In this document: positions 7,056-21,240 of the stretch, piece after piece
Layout: every line of letters begins with the position of its first letter
Numbering within the stretch: the stretch's first letter is position 1
From: the human T2T-CHM13v2.0 reference genome, Homo sapiens
NCBI RefSeq assembly: GCF_009914755.1
Contig: NC_060948.1
Reading direction: 5' to 3' (one strand)
DNA: 64,000 bases
Program-made: the position numbers and the translations under genes
Notes under the pieces: model-generated
What the model was told of the DNA's origin: nothing
Databases searched by the model: none
The model's input: the letters and a program-made list of their open reading frames with translations, nothing else

Positions 7056-7192
7056 ATCACAGTAGCTTTGGCAGCAATATCGAGATGTTGTCAGTTAAGC
7101 TTCTAGATCCCTCCATCTGCCACCATCAACATAGTCACATGACTAGAAATAATAATTTATGTATCTAGAATCAGCCACAAGTAGACTGCTGA
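7056..7192 (+). pseudogene. Candidate degenerate trypsin-like exon upstream of the giant repeat exon
   Basis: Acceptor ccttcag| and donor |gtactt; phase 1 to 0, 137 bp; translates DHSSFGSNIEMLSVKLLDPSICHHQHSHMTRNNNLCI*NQPQVDC*; size, phase and Cys pattern resemble the exon at 20178-20309, size and phase also 16173-16306. Confidence 0.55.
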
Positions 7193-7374
7193 GTACTTAC
7201 TACATAAAGGCAAAGCTAGCATTTTTGGGTTGGGGGGGCAGGTGTAGAAACACGTTAACAGTTCTGTAAATACACATAAAGATATGCATTTTCCTTAATC
7301 ACAAATAAATAAACCAGAAGAATTTTCAGTGATTTAAAAAAATTAAGAAATAGGGAACTTATTTAAAAAGCCTT

Positions 7375-7640
7375 TGAAGCCACAGTGGCTCTTGCCTGTT
7401 ATCTCAGTATTTTGGGAAACTGAGACAGGGCCTCACTTGAGGCCAGGAATTCCAGAGGAGGCTGGCAAATAGAGTGAGATGCTGTCTCTAGAAAAAATAA
7501 ATAAAATTTAAAAATTAGCTGCTTGTTTTGCAGTGTGCCTACAGCCCTAGCTACTTGGGAGGCTGAGGTGAAAGAATTGTTTGAACCAGGGAGTTTGATG
7601 TTGCTGTAACTTATGATCTTGTCACTTCACCCCAGCCTGT
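7375..7640 (+). mobile_element. Old Alu (AluJ-like) lacking its 3' end and A-tail
   Basis: Diverged dimeric Alu ending at ...ccccagcctg and running directly into repeat-exon sequence. Confidence 0.8.
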
Positions 7641-7644
7641 CCAG

Positions 7645-10600
7645 AGGATTATCTAATCATACTGTGGACTATTGCCAAATCTGCAGCAGTGAAACTCTGG
7701 ACACATTCTGTGTCTGGTAAAGTCACACTTTGGAACCAAGAAGAATTTCCAGCCTTACTTCCCTTGACAGAGCCTATCGCTAAGACAGTCACAACATAGA
7801 TCCAGGATAGAATTCCAACAATAAATCCCTGAGCAAAAACTATAGCTGAAACTGCCATACCATGGATCCTCGATGAAATGCCACCAACAAATCCCTGGAA
7901 AAAATACAGCCTGAATATTTAGCAGTAAATACCTGGCACTATCTGAATTTAACCCAGTCTCATTGTGGATCTTGGCTTATTTGTCAGTAGGAAACTACTC
8001 TACACAGTTCCATACTGAAACAATAACACTGTGAACCCACGTTGAGTCTCCAGCAATACTTTCCTGGAAACAGTTGGGAACTGATATAATCACATTAGGG
8101 ACCCATGCTGAATCACTAGTGATGAATTCATGGATATATTCTTCTATATGTGATACGGTCACAACACCTATCCAGGCTGAATCAGTTATTAAATCACTGG
8201 ACATACTCTGAAACTGATATACTCACAACATGGATTCTGGCTGAAACTCTAGGATTAAGTCCCTGGGCACGTGATATGTTCCTACCATGGACCCAGGCTG
8301 AAAGTCCAGCAGTATCTTGGATTCAACCATGGATTCTGGGTAGAATGCCAGCAATGAATCCCTGGAGAGAGGCTACAGCTGACATTGTCCTACCCTGGAA
8401 CCAGGCTGAATTTATGTAGAAGGAAATGCCTGGACACCGTCTGAAACTTATACAATCACAAAGAGGATCCTGAGTGATTCTCCAGCACTAAATTCATGGA
8501 CATGGGCAATAGCTGATGCAGACCAGCTGTGGACCAAACCTGAATTTCCAGCAGTAAATCCCTGGACAAAGTCTGTAGTTGATAGTACTATACCATGGAT
8601 ACAGGATGAGTCTCCAGCAATAAATCCATGGACACAGTACGTATCTTATATGATCAAACCATGAGCCCAAAATGACTCTTCAGCAGTAAATCTCTGTACA
8701 CTACCTGAATCTGATACCATTATCCTGTGGACACAAGCTGAGTCTCCAACAGTAAATCCGTTCACAGAGGCTGGAACTTCCACAGTCACACCATGGGCCC
8801 AGGCTGTATCTCCAGCAGTAATTCCACGGACACAGCCTATACTTTCCACAGTCGTACCTTGGACCCAGGTTGAATGTCCATCAGTAAATACCTGGAGAAC
8901 GTCCATAGCTGATGCCATCACACTGTGGATAGGGGCTGAATTAACCGCAGGATATCAATGGATACTGCCTTGGGCTGCTACTGTCACACTGTGGTCACAG
9001 TCTGAATCTCCAGCAGGAAATCTTTGGACACAGTCTGTGTATGACACAGACACACCATGGCCTCAGGCTGAATCTCCAGCAGTAGTTTGCTGGACAGAAC
9101 ATGTAGCTGATACACACCGTGGACTCAGTTTGAATTTTTAACAGTAAAGCCTTGGATCCAATCTGTATCTGATACGCTCATACCATGGACCCAGGCTGAG
9201 TCTTCAGCACTAAAGCATTTGACACAGGCAATAGCTTATACAATCAAGCTGTGGAACCAAGTCAAATCACCTGCCATAAATCTCTGGAAACAATATGAAA
9301 CGAATATGTTCACATGGTGTACTGAGGTTGAATCTCCAAAAGTAAAGGAGGGGACACATCCTATACCTGCTACAGTTATACCACTGAACCAAGCTGAATC
9401 TGTAGGAGTAAATCCCTCCACAAAGCTTGAAACAGAAATACTCATACTGTGGACCCAGGCTCATTCTAAAATCAACAATCTCTGTACATATACTCTACTT
9501 GATAGAGTGAAACCATTGGCTAAGGATGTTTGTGTAGCAGTAAACCCATGGAGACAGTCTAAAACTGAAATAGTCACATCATGGGCCCAGGATCTGTTGC
9601 CAGCAATAAATCCCTTAACAGTGGCTGTACCTGGTATAGTCACACTGCAGTACATGGCTGTATCTCTAGTAATAATTCCCAGGAGAGAGGCTCTAGCTGA
9701 TACAGTCATAATATGGACACAGACAAAATCACCAGCAATCAGTTTCTGGTTGTAACCTCTGCCTGGCACAGTCAAACTATGGACCCAAGCAAAATATACA
9801 CCCGTTATCACTTGGAACCAGGCTGAATTTCCAGCTAGAAATCCCATGATACAATCTTAGCCTCCAATTGTAAAGATCTGAACAGAGTCTGAATCTCTAG
9901 CCCCAAGTCCTCTGTTATAGGTGGAGACTGATACAGTCATACCATGGACCCAGACTGAATCTTTGGCAGTAAATCCCTGGACAAAGCCTGTTGCTGATAC
10001 ACTCACACTGTGTACACAGCCTGTAACTCCATCATTAATCGTTTTTTCACAAACTTTTCATGATACACTGAAAGCATGGGCTCAAACTGAATGCTTACCA
10101 GTAAATACCTGGACAGAGGCTGTAGCTTCCAAAATTATACCCTGGACCCAGGCTGAATTTCCAGCAGTAAATCCTTAGACAGAGCCTTTTGCTCATACGG
10201 TAACAATTTTGGCACAGGCTGTATCTTCAACAGTAAAGATCTGGCCACAGCCTTCATTTAATACAACCAACTTATGTATTTAATACAACCAATCTGAATC
10301 TGCAGCATTAATTACATGGATACAGCCTGCATCTGATACATACATAGGATTGATCCAATCTGAATCTTCACCAGTGAATTCCTGGAGACTGCCTATATCT
10401 AATATATTATCATTGTGGACCAAGCCTGTATCTCTAGCAGTCAATCTGTGAATAGAGGCAATAGCTTCCATAGTCATACCTTGGACCAAAGCTTTACTTT
10501 TAGAAACAAAACCCTGGACACATCCTGTATCTGATATACTTATGCTGTGGACCCAGGTTGAATCTTCTGCAGCGATTACCTCCACACAGGCAGTATCTGA

Positions 10601-10970
10601 CACAATTATACTGTGGCTGCATGCTGCAGGCCTCCAGTAGGAATTACCTGGATACAGACTGATCTGATCTTCTTATATCTTCTTATATCATGAAACAATG
10701 ATGAATCTCAACAGAAAATTCAGGGGCATGGGCTGTAGTTTCCACCGTGTTACCATGCAACCAGTTATCCCTTCAGCAGGAAAAACCTGGACATCTACCT
10801 GTGTCAGAATCAATCACCCCGCAGACCCAGTCTGAGTCTCCAGTAATGAACACATGGACAGAGGCTGCAGCTTCCACACTCTCAAAGTGGACTCATGATG
10901 ATTTTCCAGATGCAAATGCTTATACACAGAGCGAAATGGGCACATACTGGACAATGGGTAAAACTGAAGC
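7645..10970 (+). repeat. Degenerate 33-bp tandem array with 66-bp higher-order period (PWTQAESPAVN / PWTQPVADTVI)
   Basis: Recurrent ccatggacccaggctgaatctccagcagtaaat alternating with ccctggacacagcctgtagctgatacagtcata-like units, e.g. 8790-8895 and 9940-10010. Confidence 0.9.
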
Positions 10971-10975
10971 TAAGA

Positions 10976-19672: not shown

Positions 19673-19673
19673 A

Positions 19674-19970
19674 GGCCAGACATGGTGGCTCACGCATGTA
19701 ATCCCAGCACTTTGAGAGGCTGAGGTGGTGGATCACCTGAGGTCAGGTGTTCAAGACCAATCTGACCATCATGGGGAAACACCATCTCTATTAAAAATAC
19801 AAAATTAGCCAGGAGTTGTGGTGTGTGCCTGTAATCCCAGCTACTCAAGAGACTGATGCAGGAGAACTGCTTGAATCCTGGAGGCAGAGGTTGCAGTGAG
19901 CTGAGATCAGGCCGCTGTACTCCAGCCTGGGTGACAGAGTGAAACTCTACCTTAAAAAAGAAAAGAAAAG
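19674..19970 (+). mobile_element. AluS directly after the previous Alu's tail
   Basis: ggccagacatggtggctcacgcatgtaatcccagcactttg...ggatcacctgaggtcagg. Confidence 0.9.
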
Positions 19971-20177
19971 TGACCAAAAAGATAATGAAATAGAAAAATT
20001 GTGTGATGTAAAATGTTAATGGTGATGAAATGAACTGAATTTCTGTGTAAAAGTTATAGATACAAGTTTAAAGTAATGACGAGACAGAAGTGATGAGACA
20101 AATCGTAGTCTTATCTTAATACTTAGGGTTTAAATTTAACATATATTCTTAAGGATATAGTCCATTTGTCTTTCTAG

Positions 20178-20309
20178 GAGGGACCAATGACAATCCAGAA
20201 ATGTTAGGCACAAGTGATGAAAGCTTCCAGCTGTGCCCACCTGTACCCTGACATAGGCAGTTCCATTGTTTGCTTCATTACTCAGGACAAAAACTCTGAT
20301 GAAATTGTG
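20178..20309 (+). pseudogene. PRSSLY: PRSSLY-like protease domain B, exon 3 of 4 (one frameshift)
   Basis: tttctag|...GTG|gtacat; GTNDNPEMLG / QVMKASSCAHLYPDIGSSIVCFITQDKNSDEIV. Confidence 0.7.
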
Positions 20310-20848
20310 GTACATCATCAATTTTTTTCTTACTACATGATAGAAACTATAACTTTGTTCCTATACAAAGGGGTGTATACTGCATATGCCTAAATGATAA
20401 ATATAAGTGAATTATTGATCAGTAGGAAACCATTTTAAAATTCTTTAATTACAGAACAAAGTCTCTAAAAAAAATCTGTTTTTAATCTCTGAGTTTTCTT
20501 ACATACGATTTCAATCTCTAGCCATACTGTATAGCTATTATGCTGCTGTACACACAAATCAGACATTCTATATTATTCTCTTATTCTAATAATAGTATCT
20601 TTACACCTCAGAGTTTAAAACGAGTCTCACCTTTTTCTATTTCCCCAATTAAAATAACTTTTTAACATTTAATCTTCAGTGATTTTTTGTAGTAATATTT
20701 TTGAAGGTATTTCATCAGGATGATTTATTATGCACTTATCTGATGTCTCCTTTTCTTCTGAATACATGTTTTAATATCTACTTATTAAATCTATGATTAA
20801 TAATTTGGAATAGGGATTTAAATCCAAATTCTATGTTGGAATTTACAG

Positions 20849-21240
20849 GAGTCAGTGAGCCTACGAAAAGCATTTATGTGCAGACCAGTATCTGACAATG
20901 GCAGTTGGAGACAAATAGGCTTCACCAGTCTCAAAGCCCTAGCTACTACAGTGAGTCCACATTTGTCCTGGATATTATCTACTTCAGCAAAAGAAGGTCA
21001 CTCAATAAACCAGGCCCTTGTGCCTTGGGTAGAAACTCCGAACTCCTCTAGTCTCCTTAAACAACCAACCACACTGCCACTTTCCTCAATAATAATTACG
21101 GCAGCCCAGGGACTTTGGTAGCCTAGTGACTATAACTACTGATGCCACAGTCTGGTCACAGTATGATAAAACGCCAGAGCATCAACAAGGAAAATTTTGA
21201 CTTAGCCTTCCAAAATCTATCTAAATATACCTTCAATAAA
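20849..21240 (+). pseudogene. PRSSLY: PRSSLY-like terminal exon (stop 21119-21121, AATAAA 21235-21240)
   Basis: ttacag| in phase 0; ESVSLRKAFMCRPVSDNGSWRQIGFTS...VSPHLSWI matches the C-terminal trypsin C...W.Q.G..S...WI pattern. Confidence 0.75.

What the first reader, a model, noticed from the sequence alone, without database searches (positions are those of the whole stretch)
7056..21240. Hidden ~14-kb relic of a giant repeat + tandem serine-protease gene (PRSSLY-like)
Seen: a >6.5-kb repetitive exon followed by eight exons with mostly compatible splice phases, encoding two trypsin-like domains, a stop and an AATAAA. The ORF track shows only scattered pieces. Recalled: PRSSLY is a testis-expressed Y gene of many eutherians with a huge variable first exon and conserved protease exons. 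Inference: this is a disabled copy of it; after removing the AluY and LTR the protein would be well over 2,000 aa.
Basis: partly seen in the sequence, partly recalled or inferred. Interest (0 to 1): 0.85.

Follow-up and report, generated by a model that had tools for sequence, protein, structure and literature searches.

The report
Dead PRSSLY gene copy on Y
This stretch of the human Y chromosome is a decayed copy of PRSSLY, a testis gene still intact in many other mammals; such human relics are already published, but this copy is one of many unannotated ones that were duplicated along with neighbouring Y genes.

Summary
Window 7617-21240 (+) is a PRSSLY pseudogene. It has a ~6.7-kb first-exon relic of 33/66-nt repeats, interrupted by an Alu and a solo LTR. 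Eight further exons follow and encode two tandem trypsin-like domains, then a TAG stop and an AATAAA. It is colinear with sheep, bat and dog PRSSLY proteins (57-81% identity in exons 2-9). It carries at least 27 stops or frameshifts in the giant exon, plus stops, frameshifts and lost splice sites in the protease exons.

Hughes et al. [quoted passage not shown]

What is added here:
- Their human model starts at a different locus (chrY 10.24 Mb).
- The window copy has three sisters 99.88-99.98% identical to it over the 5 kb compared (22.78, 23.47, 25.31 Mb).
- At least 14 chrY loci keep exon 7.
- The last two exons recur at ~20.3-kb spacing through the TSPY array, tail-to-tail with a TSPY-like frame.
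- The copies share no lesion common to all, and pairwise Ka/Ks is 0.66-1.11.

Verdict: an ordinary dead gene of a known kind, with a modestly interesting copy-number history.

The parts
7617..10969 (+). Giant-exon relic, repeat tract part 1 (66-nt double units of 33 nt)
   Evidence: Periodicity at lags 66 and 33 is 0.50 and 0.41. tblastn to the sheep and bat repeat regions. At least 18 stops or frameshifts are needed to read through.
10970..11299 (+). Alu insertion with poly-A (11257-11288), interrupting the giant exon
   Evidence: Masked in the hub table; A-run found. The 8.55-Mb copy is contiguous across this site with about 15 nt of overlap, suggesting a target-site duplication.
11300..12655 (+). 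Giant-exon relic, repeat tract part 2 (33-nt units); holds the longest open piece, 231 aa at 11823-12518
   Evidence: Colinear with Rhinolophus PRSSLY residues 112-505 at 37% identity. At least 5 lesions.
12656..13117 (+). Solo-LTR-like insertion (TG...CA ends, 31-nt internal tandem repeat, AATAAA)
   Evidence: Sequence read; tandem repeat. Absent from the 10.24-Mb copy, which is contiguous from window 12655 to 13118. The family name was not determined.
13118..14341 (+). End of the repeat tract (to about 13560) and non-repeat tail of the giant exon, ending ...AVISHETT; followed by GC rather than GT
   Evidence: tblastn at 35-50% identity to sheep residues 932-1272. At least 4 lesions. The boundary was read; the 10.24- and 7.35-Mb copies also have GC here.
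15022..15190 (+). Exon 2: start of trypsin-like domain 1 (…GSILHEQWIISTARC; Arg at the catalytic-His position, as in functional orthologues)
   Evidence: Pfam Trypsin 24.3 bits. 72% identity to sheep, E 1.7e-25. AG acceptor and gtaagt donor present.
15745..16004 (+). Exon 3 (domain 1): AG acceptor lost, 1-nt deletion near 15957, extra G in the run at 16001-16005
   Evidence: The 10.24- and 7.35-Mb copies keep AG here; the 9.95-Mb copy has TG. All three carry the extra T.
16173..16306 (+). Exon 4 (domain 1)
   Evidence: Donor GT at 16307.
16424..16721 (+). Exon 5: end of domain 1 (GDLGAP; Leu at the catalytic-Ser position, as in orthologues) plus linker. Two in-frame stops (TAG 16524-16526, TGA about 16556); acceptor reads CAA where the 7.35- and 9.95-Mb copies read CAG
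   Evidence: Weak PDB matches to the active-site-Ser region of haptoglobin, tryptase and thrombin, E 0.0045-0.34.
18166..18301 (+). Exon 6: start of trypsin-like domain 2 (…GSIVGSSWILTAAHC; His kept). Acceptor mutated AG>GG in this copy only
   Evidence: Pfam Trypsin 37.8 bits. 81% identity to sheep. Acceptor compared across 5 other copies.
18666..18913 (+). Exon 7 (domain 2): open. The Asp of the NDLALL motif reads NILELL here
   Evidence: 74% identity to sheep, E 4e-32. Used for the genome census.
20178..20309 (+). Exon 8 (domain 2): frameshift near 20207, where other copies carry 1-2 extra bases
20849..21121 (+). Exon 9: end of domain 2, hydrophobic C-terminal tail and stop TAG (21119-21121)
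   Evidence: 70% identity to sheep residues 1734-1822, E 5.5e-32. Stop read.
21122..21240 (+). 3' untranslated stretch ending in AATAAA (21235-21240)
   Evidence: Sequence read. Use as a polyA signal is inferred.

Best explanation
Window 7617-21240 (+) is a non-functional, unannotated copy of PRSSLY (protease, serine-like, Y).

The ancestral gene encoded a very large testis protein: a giant first coding exon of 11-residue repeats, followed by two tandem trypsin-like domains and a hydrophobic tail. In living orthologues both domains already lack a full catalytic triad. Domain 1 has Arg for His and Leu for Ser. Domain 2 has SPGSAVMC where GDSGGP would sit. The protein therefore most likely acted by binding rather than by cleaving (inferred).

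In this copy the reading frame is destroyed many times over and several splice sites are gone, so it makes no PRSSLY protein. At most it is a weakly transcribed pseudogene.

It was duplicated as part of larger Y segments. These carry a TSPY-like unit tail-to-tail downstream and, in this lineage, an RBMY2 pseudogene beyond that. It now sits in a four-copy, nearly identical amplicon. From recall, not tested, this is the AZFc 'blue' amplicon b1-b4, with this copy as b4.
For: Homology:
- Database hits to the domain-2 exon are mammalian two-domain proteins at 74-83% identity (19 of 22 candidates at E<=0.001).
- Sheep P0002 equals the printed sheep PRSSLY text.
- tblastn is colinear from the repeats to the stop.
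- Pfam Trypsin scores above its cut-off twice.

Reciprocity:
- All 80 of 80 listed matches of dog PRSSLY in the human genome are on chrY.
- Exon 7 has no non-Y match better than E 0.39.
- The best autosomal match of exon 2 is 49% identical.

Decay:
- At least 27 lesions in the giant exon (same-length controls give 24-47).
- Alu and LTR insertions.
- Two stops in exon 5, frameshifts in exons 3 and 8, and lost acceptors at exons 3, 5 and 6.

Amplicon: three sister stretches are 99.98, 99.96 and 99.88% identical over 5 kb.

Neutral evolution: Ka/Ks between six copies is 0.66-1.11 in 15 of 15 pairs. Hughes et al. give 0.001-0.31 for functional protease domains.

Literature: human PRSSLY pseudogenes are transcribed at low level with no ORF (main-text passages, section 5, and Additional files 2, 3, 6 and 9 in part).
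Against: - Most protease exons taken singly are too short or decayed for Pfam or PDB searches. In Pfam, 7 of 9 pieces gave no Trypsin hit. In PDB, 3 of 4 pieces gave no trypsin hit.
- No 5' exon (signal peptide, or the extra N-terminal trypsin-like block seen in some orthologue cDNAs) was found upstream of 7617, so the 5' end is undefined.
- Intron positions could not be compared with orthologue genomic DNA.
- Transcription of this particular copy was not tested. The published RNA-seq used a model built on another locus.
- The minimal-lesion count of repeat part 1 (18) is only a little below random DNA of the same length (24-47), so that count by itself does not show former coding.
Confidence: 0.96

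Rival explanations
1. It is a decayed copy of another trypsin-like family (for example a PRSS55- or TMPRSS9-like duplicate), not of PRSSLY.
For: Automatic names of the database hits include 'serine protease 52/53/55-like' and 'transmembrane protease serine 9-like'. PRSS55 is PRSSLY's closest paralogue according to the abstract of PMC9178871.
Against: - The hits share the full two-domain architecture and linker. The long ones also share the repeat exon and unique tail, colinear with the window.
- Sheep P0002 matches the printed PRSSLY record.
- The best autosomal match in the human genome is only 49% identical over 39 residues, against 57-81% identity to PRSSLY orthologues.
Confidence: 0.01
2. 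It is still a protein-coding gene that annotation has missed.
For: Exons 2, 6, 7 and 9 are open. The longest open stretch in the repeat tract is 231 aa.
Against: - At least 27 lesions in the giant exon plus two insertions.
- Two stops in exon 5 and frameshifts in exons 3 and 8.
- Acceptors lost at exons 3, 5 and 6.
- Ka/Ks near 1.
- Hughes et al. found no ORF in any human transcript (Additional file 3), although their model is another copy.
Confidence: 0.01
3. The relic is kept in the amplicon because its transcript has a non-coding role in testis. This is not exclusive of the best explanation.
For: Low-level transcription of human PRSSLY pseudogene sequence is reported: TPM 0.13-0.17 in testis and 0-0.23 in brain (Additional file 6). 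Four near-identical copies exist.
Against: - The reported expression is very low and not testis-specific.
- Near-identity of amplicon copies is explained by recent duplication or gene conversion of the whole amplicon, not by selection on this piece.
- Nothing in the sequence points to a conserved RNA; no RNA test was run.
Confidence: 0.05

Closest known systems
PRSSLY of other eutherians (sheep BK059507 = P0002; Rousettus P0001; dog P0003; Rhinolophus P0006)
   Same: - Y linkage.
- Giant repeat-bearing first coding exon, Ser/Cys-rich unique tail, two tandem trypsin-like domains joined by a Ser/Thr-rich linker, and a hydrophobic C-terminus.
- The same non-catalytic substitutions in domain 1 (TARC, GDLGAP).
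- 57-81% identity in exons 2-9.
   Different: - The frame is broken throughout, splice sites are lost, and an Alu and an LTR are inserted.
- The Asp of domain 2 is lost.
- No 5' exons were found.
- It is multi-copy on the human Y, whereas Hughes et al. describe PRSSLY as single-copy in species with good assemblies.
Published human PRSSLY pseudogene model (Hughes et al. 2022, Additional file 9, 5398 nt)
   Same: It has the same origin and the same overall layout. The 10.24-Mb locus aligns with window 6623-25532 at 80-89% identity.
   Different: - It is a different locus. The model's first 30 nt are absent from the window (0 matches at up to 3 mismatches). They sit once in the genome, at chrY 10,244,163-10,244,192 on the minus strand.
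- That copy lacks window 9117-11358 and the LTR.
- It has its own lesions, including the HL*PD stop it shares with the 7.35-Mb and TSPY-unit copies.
- Only the first 400 nt of the model could be read in the supplement.
PRSS55 (closest autosomal paralogue according to PMC9178871)
   Same: Trypsin-like fold and a testis context. The best autosomal match of window exon 2 lies on chr8; that this is the PRSS55/PRSS51 region is recalled, not tested.
   Different: Only 49% identity over 39 residues. The single-domain structure and lack of a giant exon in PRSS55 are recalled, not tested.

Membership tests
PRSSLY | Closest relatives are PRSSLY orthologues, not other PRSS genes (reciprocal similarity) | tested here: met
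   All significant human-genome matches are on chrY. The best autosomal match is 49% identical, against 57-81% identity to orthologues.
PRSSLY | Very long upstream coding exon without known domains, ahead of the protease part | tested here: met
   33/66-nt repeat tract plus unique tail, 7617-14341, colinear with sheep residues 1-1272 and bat proteins. No Pfam domain in 3 pieces tested.
PRSSLY | Trypsin-like serine protease domain(s) in four to nine downstream exons | tested here: met
   Eight exons. Pfam Trypsin scores above its cut-off twice, on the N-terminal exon of each domain. The other exons are supported only by tblastn to orthologues.
PRSSLY | Same intron positions and phases as orthologues | tested here: inconclusive
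   Ends of the protein alignment blocks coincide with AG/GT or their mutated remains. No orthologue genomic DNA was available to compare intron positions directly.
PRSSLY | Y linkage in eutherians | tested here: met
   The window and all copies are on contig C24, which is chrY according to the hub's note.
PRSSLY | Testis-specific expression | not testable with these tools
   No RNA data are held. The published human values are very low and were obtained with another copy as model.
PRSSLY (functional gene) | Intact open reading frame | tested here: not met
   It is a pseudogene member, not a functional one.
S1 (trypsin) peptidases, catalytically active | His-Asp-Ser triad | tested here: not met
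   Domain 1 has Arg for His and Leu for Ser, also in the orthologues. Domain 2 keeps His; its Asp is lost in this copy (NILELL) and the GDSGGP motif is absent even in orthologues.

The most novel reading that the evidence does not exclude
PRSSLY and TSPY lay tail-to-tail on the Y of an early anthropoid ancestor and were amplified together while the PRSSLY protease exons were still intact. On this reading PRSSLY was for a time a multi-copy testis gene family in primates. All copies then decayed independently, leaving at least 14 dispersed relics and a two-exon stub in every unit of today's TSPY array.

For: no disabling lesion in exons 2-9 is common to all six copies compared.

Against a long functional period: Ka/Ks is 0.66-1.11 between copies.
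Probability: 0.2. Interest if true: 0.55.

Novelty: new member of a known kind. Interest (0 to 1): 0.3.

Why it matters
It matters little for function, because the locus is a dead gene and human PRSSLY pseudogenes are already in print.

It matters somewhat for annotation and for Y-chromosome history:
- RefSeq lists nothing here (hub table).
- The published human model is a different locus.
- Relics of this ancestral X-Y gene are spread through the ampliconic Y, apparently including the AZFc amplicons and every TSPY array unit.
- Short-read or RNA-seq work that treats PRSSLY pseudogene sequence as single-copy in humans will therefore mis-assign reads.
- The shared junctions give markers for ordering the duplications that built the TSPY array, the Yp inverted-repeat arms and the AZFc amplicons.

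Tried and rejected
- PDB sequence searches with four single exons: three gave no trypsin match and one (exon 5) gave only weak S1-family matches. The pieces are too short and decayed, so orthologue proteins were used instead.
- Search for 5' exons upstream of 7617, using dog and gopher N-termini, all 19 fetched proteins and degenerate motifs. Nothing was convincing; the best hits were E 0.04-0.2 at 7076-7126.
- Pfam NAP (PF00956) over the whole genome, to place the TSPY genes: no chrY array rows were returned, so it was uninformative.
- Pfam on seven minus-strand frames at 22646-24724 gave nothing. A protein-database search with 24338-24724(-) gave no hit at E<=0.001 among 1197 candidates. The 'TSPY-like' label for that frame therefore rests on its copies in the TSPY array units, on the T2T-Y text, and on my recall of the TSPY sequence.
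- The first whole-genome DNA search scored only 4 of 32,748 candidates. It missed the near-identical sister copies and the 10.24-Mb locus, so it is not a census.
- Tandem Repeats Finder did not report the 33/66-nt tract; the units are too diverged. An autocorrelation script was used instead.
- Earlier-findings look-up was not open.
- Dating is only rough. Tree path lengths are 0.095 to the 8.55-Mb copy and 0.14-0.17 to the others. A recalled neutral Y rate of about 1-1.5e-9 per site per year gives roughly 30-50 My and 50-85 My. No outgroup was available to root or calibrate the tree.

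
Full report
**What is in the sequence**

The + strand from about 7617 to 13560 has a strong 33/66-nt periodicity. The fraction of matching bases at those lags is 0.41-0.50, against a mean of 0.256 over all lags. Three control stretches never exceed 0.316. A sliding scan puts the onset at about 7.5-7.6 kb and the end at about 13.5 kb, with dips at two insertions. Translated, the tract reads as 11-residue units of the type PWTQxESPAVN in constantly changing frames. Tandem Repeats Finder missed it. Downstream, stop-to-stop frames carry recognisable trypsin motifs twice: GSILHEQWIISTARC near 15.15 kb and GSIVGSSWILTAAHC near 18.25 kb.

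**Identification**

- Pfam Trypsin (PF00089, cut-off 20.6 bits) matches 14967-15194 at 24.3 bits and 18153-18305 at 37.8 bits. Both matches fall on profile positions about 6-46, so they are two separate domain starts.
- The other seven protease-exon pieces gave no Trypsin match in Pfam. Three of four pieces gave nothing relevant in PDB. The GDLGAP piece matched the active-site-serine region of haptoglobin, tryptase and thrombin only weakly, at E 0.0045-0.34.
- A protein-database search with the 50-residue domain-2 exon returned 19 proteins at E<=0.001 among 22 candidates. All are mammalian and 74-83% identical, and several are very long (Ovis 1823 aa, Rhinolophus 1513 aa, Rousettus 1109 aa).
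- The sheep protein starts with exactly the translation of the sheep PRSSLY record BK059507 as printed in Additional file 9 of Hughes et al. 2022 (translated by eye). These proteins are therefore PRSSLY orthologues, whatever their automatic names say.

**Gene structure**

tblastn of the orthologues on the window is colinear from the repeats to the stop. With boundaries read from the DNA, the structure is:
- A first-exon relic at 7617-14341.
- Eight further exons at 15022-15190, 15745-16004, 16173-16306, 16424-16721, 18166-18301, 18666-18913, 20178-20309 and 20849-21121.
- The stop TAG at 21119-21121 and an AATAAA at 21235-21240.

Only the proposed start at 7056 fails: nothing upstream of 7617 resembles PRSSLY.

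**Reciprocal test**

- Dog PRSSLY searched against the whole human assembly gave 80 listed matches, all 80 on chrY.
- Window exon 7 has 18 matches at E<0.02, falling in 14 chrY loci. The best match elsewhere has E 0.39.
- Window exon 2's best autosomal match is on chr8, 49% identical over 39 residues at E 1.9e-5. From recall this is the PRSS55/PRSS51 region, which would fit the paper's statement that PRSS55 is the closest paralogue.

**State of the copy**

Giant exon:
- Reading it through needs at least 18 + 5 + 4 = 27 stops or frame changes. Random stretches the length of part 1 need 24-47, so the tract is almost fully decayed.
- It is also split by an Alu (10970-11299). The 8.55-Mb sister lacks this Alu and is contiguous across the site with about 15 nt of overlap.
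- A 462-nt solo-LTR-like element sits at 12656-13117 and is absent from the 10.24-Mb copy.

Protease exons:

| Exon | Lesion in the window copy |
|---|---|
| 3 | AG acceptor lost; one base missing near 15957; an extra G in the run at its end |
| 5 | Acceptor reads CAA where two other copies read CAG; TAT>TAG (shared with the 8.55-Mb copy); TGG>TGA (this lineage only) |
| 6 | Acceptor is GG where five other copies keep AG |
| 7 | The Asp of the NDLALL motif reads NILELL |
| 8 | Frameshift near 20207 |

The functional orthologues themselves lack a catalytic triad. Domain 1 has Arg for His and Leu for Ser. Domain 2 has SPGSAVMC in place of GDSGGP. The living protein is thus probably a non-catalytic, protease-like binder (inference).

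**What is already known**

Hughes et al. 2022 (PMC9178871) make these statements; I read the outline, sections 5 and 7, passages, and parts of Additional files 1, 2, 3, 4, 6 and 9:
[quoted passage not shown] - Intact PRSSLY averages 2212 residues, with most of the ORF in one exon.

**What is added here**

1. *The published model is another locus.* Its first 30 nt are absent from the window and occur once in the genome, at chrY 10,244,163-10,244,192 on the minus strand. That locus aligns with window 6623-25532 at 80-89% identity and lacks window 9117-11358. Only the first 400 nt of the model were visible to me.

2. *The window copy has three sisters.* They lie at 22.78 (-), 23.47 (+) and 25.31 (+) Mb and are 99.88, 99.98 and 99.96% identical to it over the 5 kb compared. 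The second and fourth copies are direct repeats 3.45 Mb apart. This fits the b2/b4 blue amplicons of AZFc; that assignment is recalled, not tested.

3. *There are further diverged copies*:
   - 8.55 Mb, about 90% identical. The shared segment runs from window 1 to beyond 35027, through RBMY2DP, with two deletions.
   - 7.35, 7.94 and 22.33 Mb.
   - Three inverted pairs: 5.92/10.24, 5.97/10.16 and 6.18/9.95 Mb. The 5.92 and 10.24 segments are identical over 1.4 kb. Their mirror symmetry fits the Yp inverted repeat IR3 (recalled).

4. *The last two exons recur through the TSPY array.*
   - Matches to the last exon lie at about 20.3-kb spacing from 8,958,687 to 9,851,464; 42 rows were listed of about 45 positions expected.
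   - One such unit aligns with window 19870-22655.
   - The T2T-Y preprint describes a 931-kb array of about 20.2-kb composite units, one TSPY gene each, and never mentions PRSSLY (passages only).
   - A minus-strand frame in the window (24338-24724) has a copy on the minus strand of the listed array units, open for 266 codons and about 3.9 kb from the PRSSLY stub.
   - The window therefore appears to carry PRSSLY-relic(+), a TSPY-like relic(-) and RBMY2DP(+) in a row. The array unit looks like a tail-to-tail PRSSLY-3'-end/TSPY module.
   - Pfam and the protein database did not confirm the TSPY label.

[quoted passage not shown] For the human relics that does not hold.

**History (inferred)**

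- A tree of a 1.4-kb segment shared by eight copies joins the window with the 8.55-Mb copy (support 100/100). The others are left star-like. Path lengths are 0.095 within that pair and 0.14-0.17 to the rest.
- No lesion in exons 2-9 is common to all six copies compared. Some lesions mark subgroups: TAT>TAG for the window plus 8.55 Mb, and the HL*PD stop for 10.24 Mb, 7.35 Mb and the TSPY unit.
- Pairwise Ka/Ks is 0.66-1.11 in all 15 pairs. The codon maps were guided by protein alignment, which biases Ka downward. The paper gives 0.001-0.31 for functional domains.
- Constraint was therefore lost at about the time of the duplications or soon after.

**Verdict**

The feature is a pseudogene of a published kind. 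This particular locus and the multi-copy, TSPY-linked spread are not described in the papers I could search. 'PRSSLY' is held by 23 papers, of which 21 were listed. 'DYZ5' together with 'serine protease' is held by none.

Noticed in passing
window 22500-24800, minus strand (frame 24338-24724 and others): A GC-rich stretch lies just downstream of the PRSSLY relic. Its minus-strand frame has copies, open for 266 codons, in the listed units of the TSPY array, and 100%-identical copies in the three sister amplicons. It looks like an unannotated TSPY-like pseudogene lying tail-to-tail with the PRSSLY relic and head-to-head with RBMY2DP. Pfam and the protein database gave nothing for it.
   Followed up: partly
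G000:C24 8,958,687-9,851,464 (e.g. L027 = 9139501-9143000): PRSSLY-like matches recur at ~20.3-kb spacing through the TSPY array: last-exon matches at 42 listed positions, and exons 8-9 on the + strand in the one unit examined (L027), carrying a frameshift and a stop. The T2T-Y preprint lists 'five new repeat annotations (fam-*)' per unit. One of these might be this gene fragment; that was not checked.
   Followed up: partly
G000:C24 5.92/10.24, 5.97/10.16 and 6.18/9.95 Mb: Three PRSSLY relics occur as mirror-image pairs whose coordinate sums are almost constant (about 16.13-16.15 Mb). This means three relics per arm of a large inverted repeat; that it is IR3 is recalled. The 5.92 and 10.24 segments are identical over 1.4 kb.
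   Followed up: partly
window 25532: Homology with the 10.24-, 7.35- and 5.92-Mb copies stops at window 25532 in all three. That is 33 nt inside the annotated start of RBMY2DP (25499). The 8.55-Mb copy continues through RBMY2DP to beyond 35027. This may be the junction where RBMY2 sequence was joined to the PRSSLY/TSPY module in this lineage.
   Followed up: no
G000:C24:22785054-22785224 (sister copy at 22.78 Mb): This sister copy differs from the other three in exon 2: 98% identity and one TGA. It also has 3 mismatches in the 5 kb compared. It is therefore the most diverged of the four amplicon copies.
   Followed up: no
window 7380-7616: An old Alu-like element abuts the 5' edge of the repeat tract. 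The 10.24-Mb copy shares the flank 6623-7639, but there it lies about 9.5 kb further from its repeat tract, and its repeats extend about 1.3 kb 5' of the published model's start. The 5' end of the ancestral exon is unresolved.
   Followed up: partly
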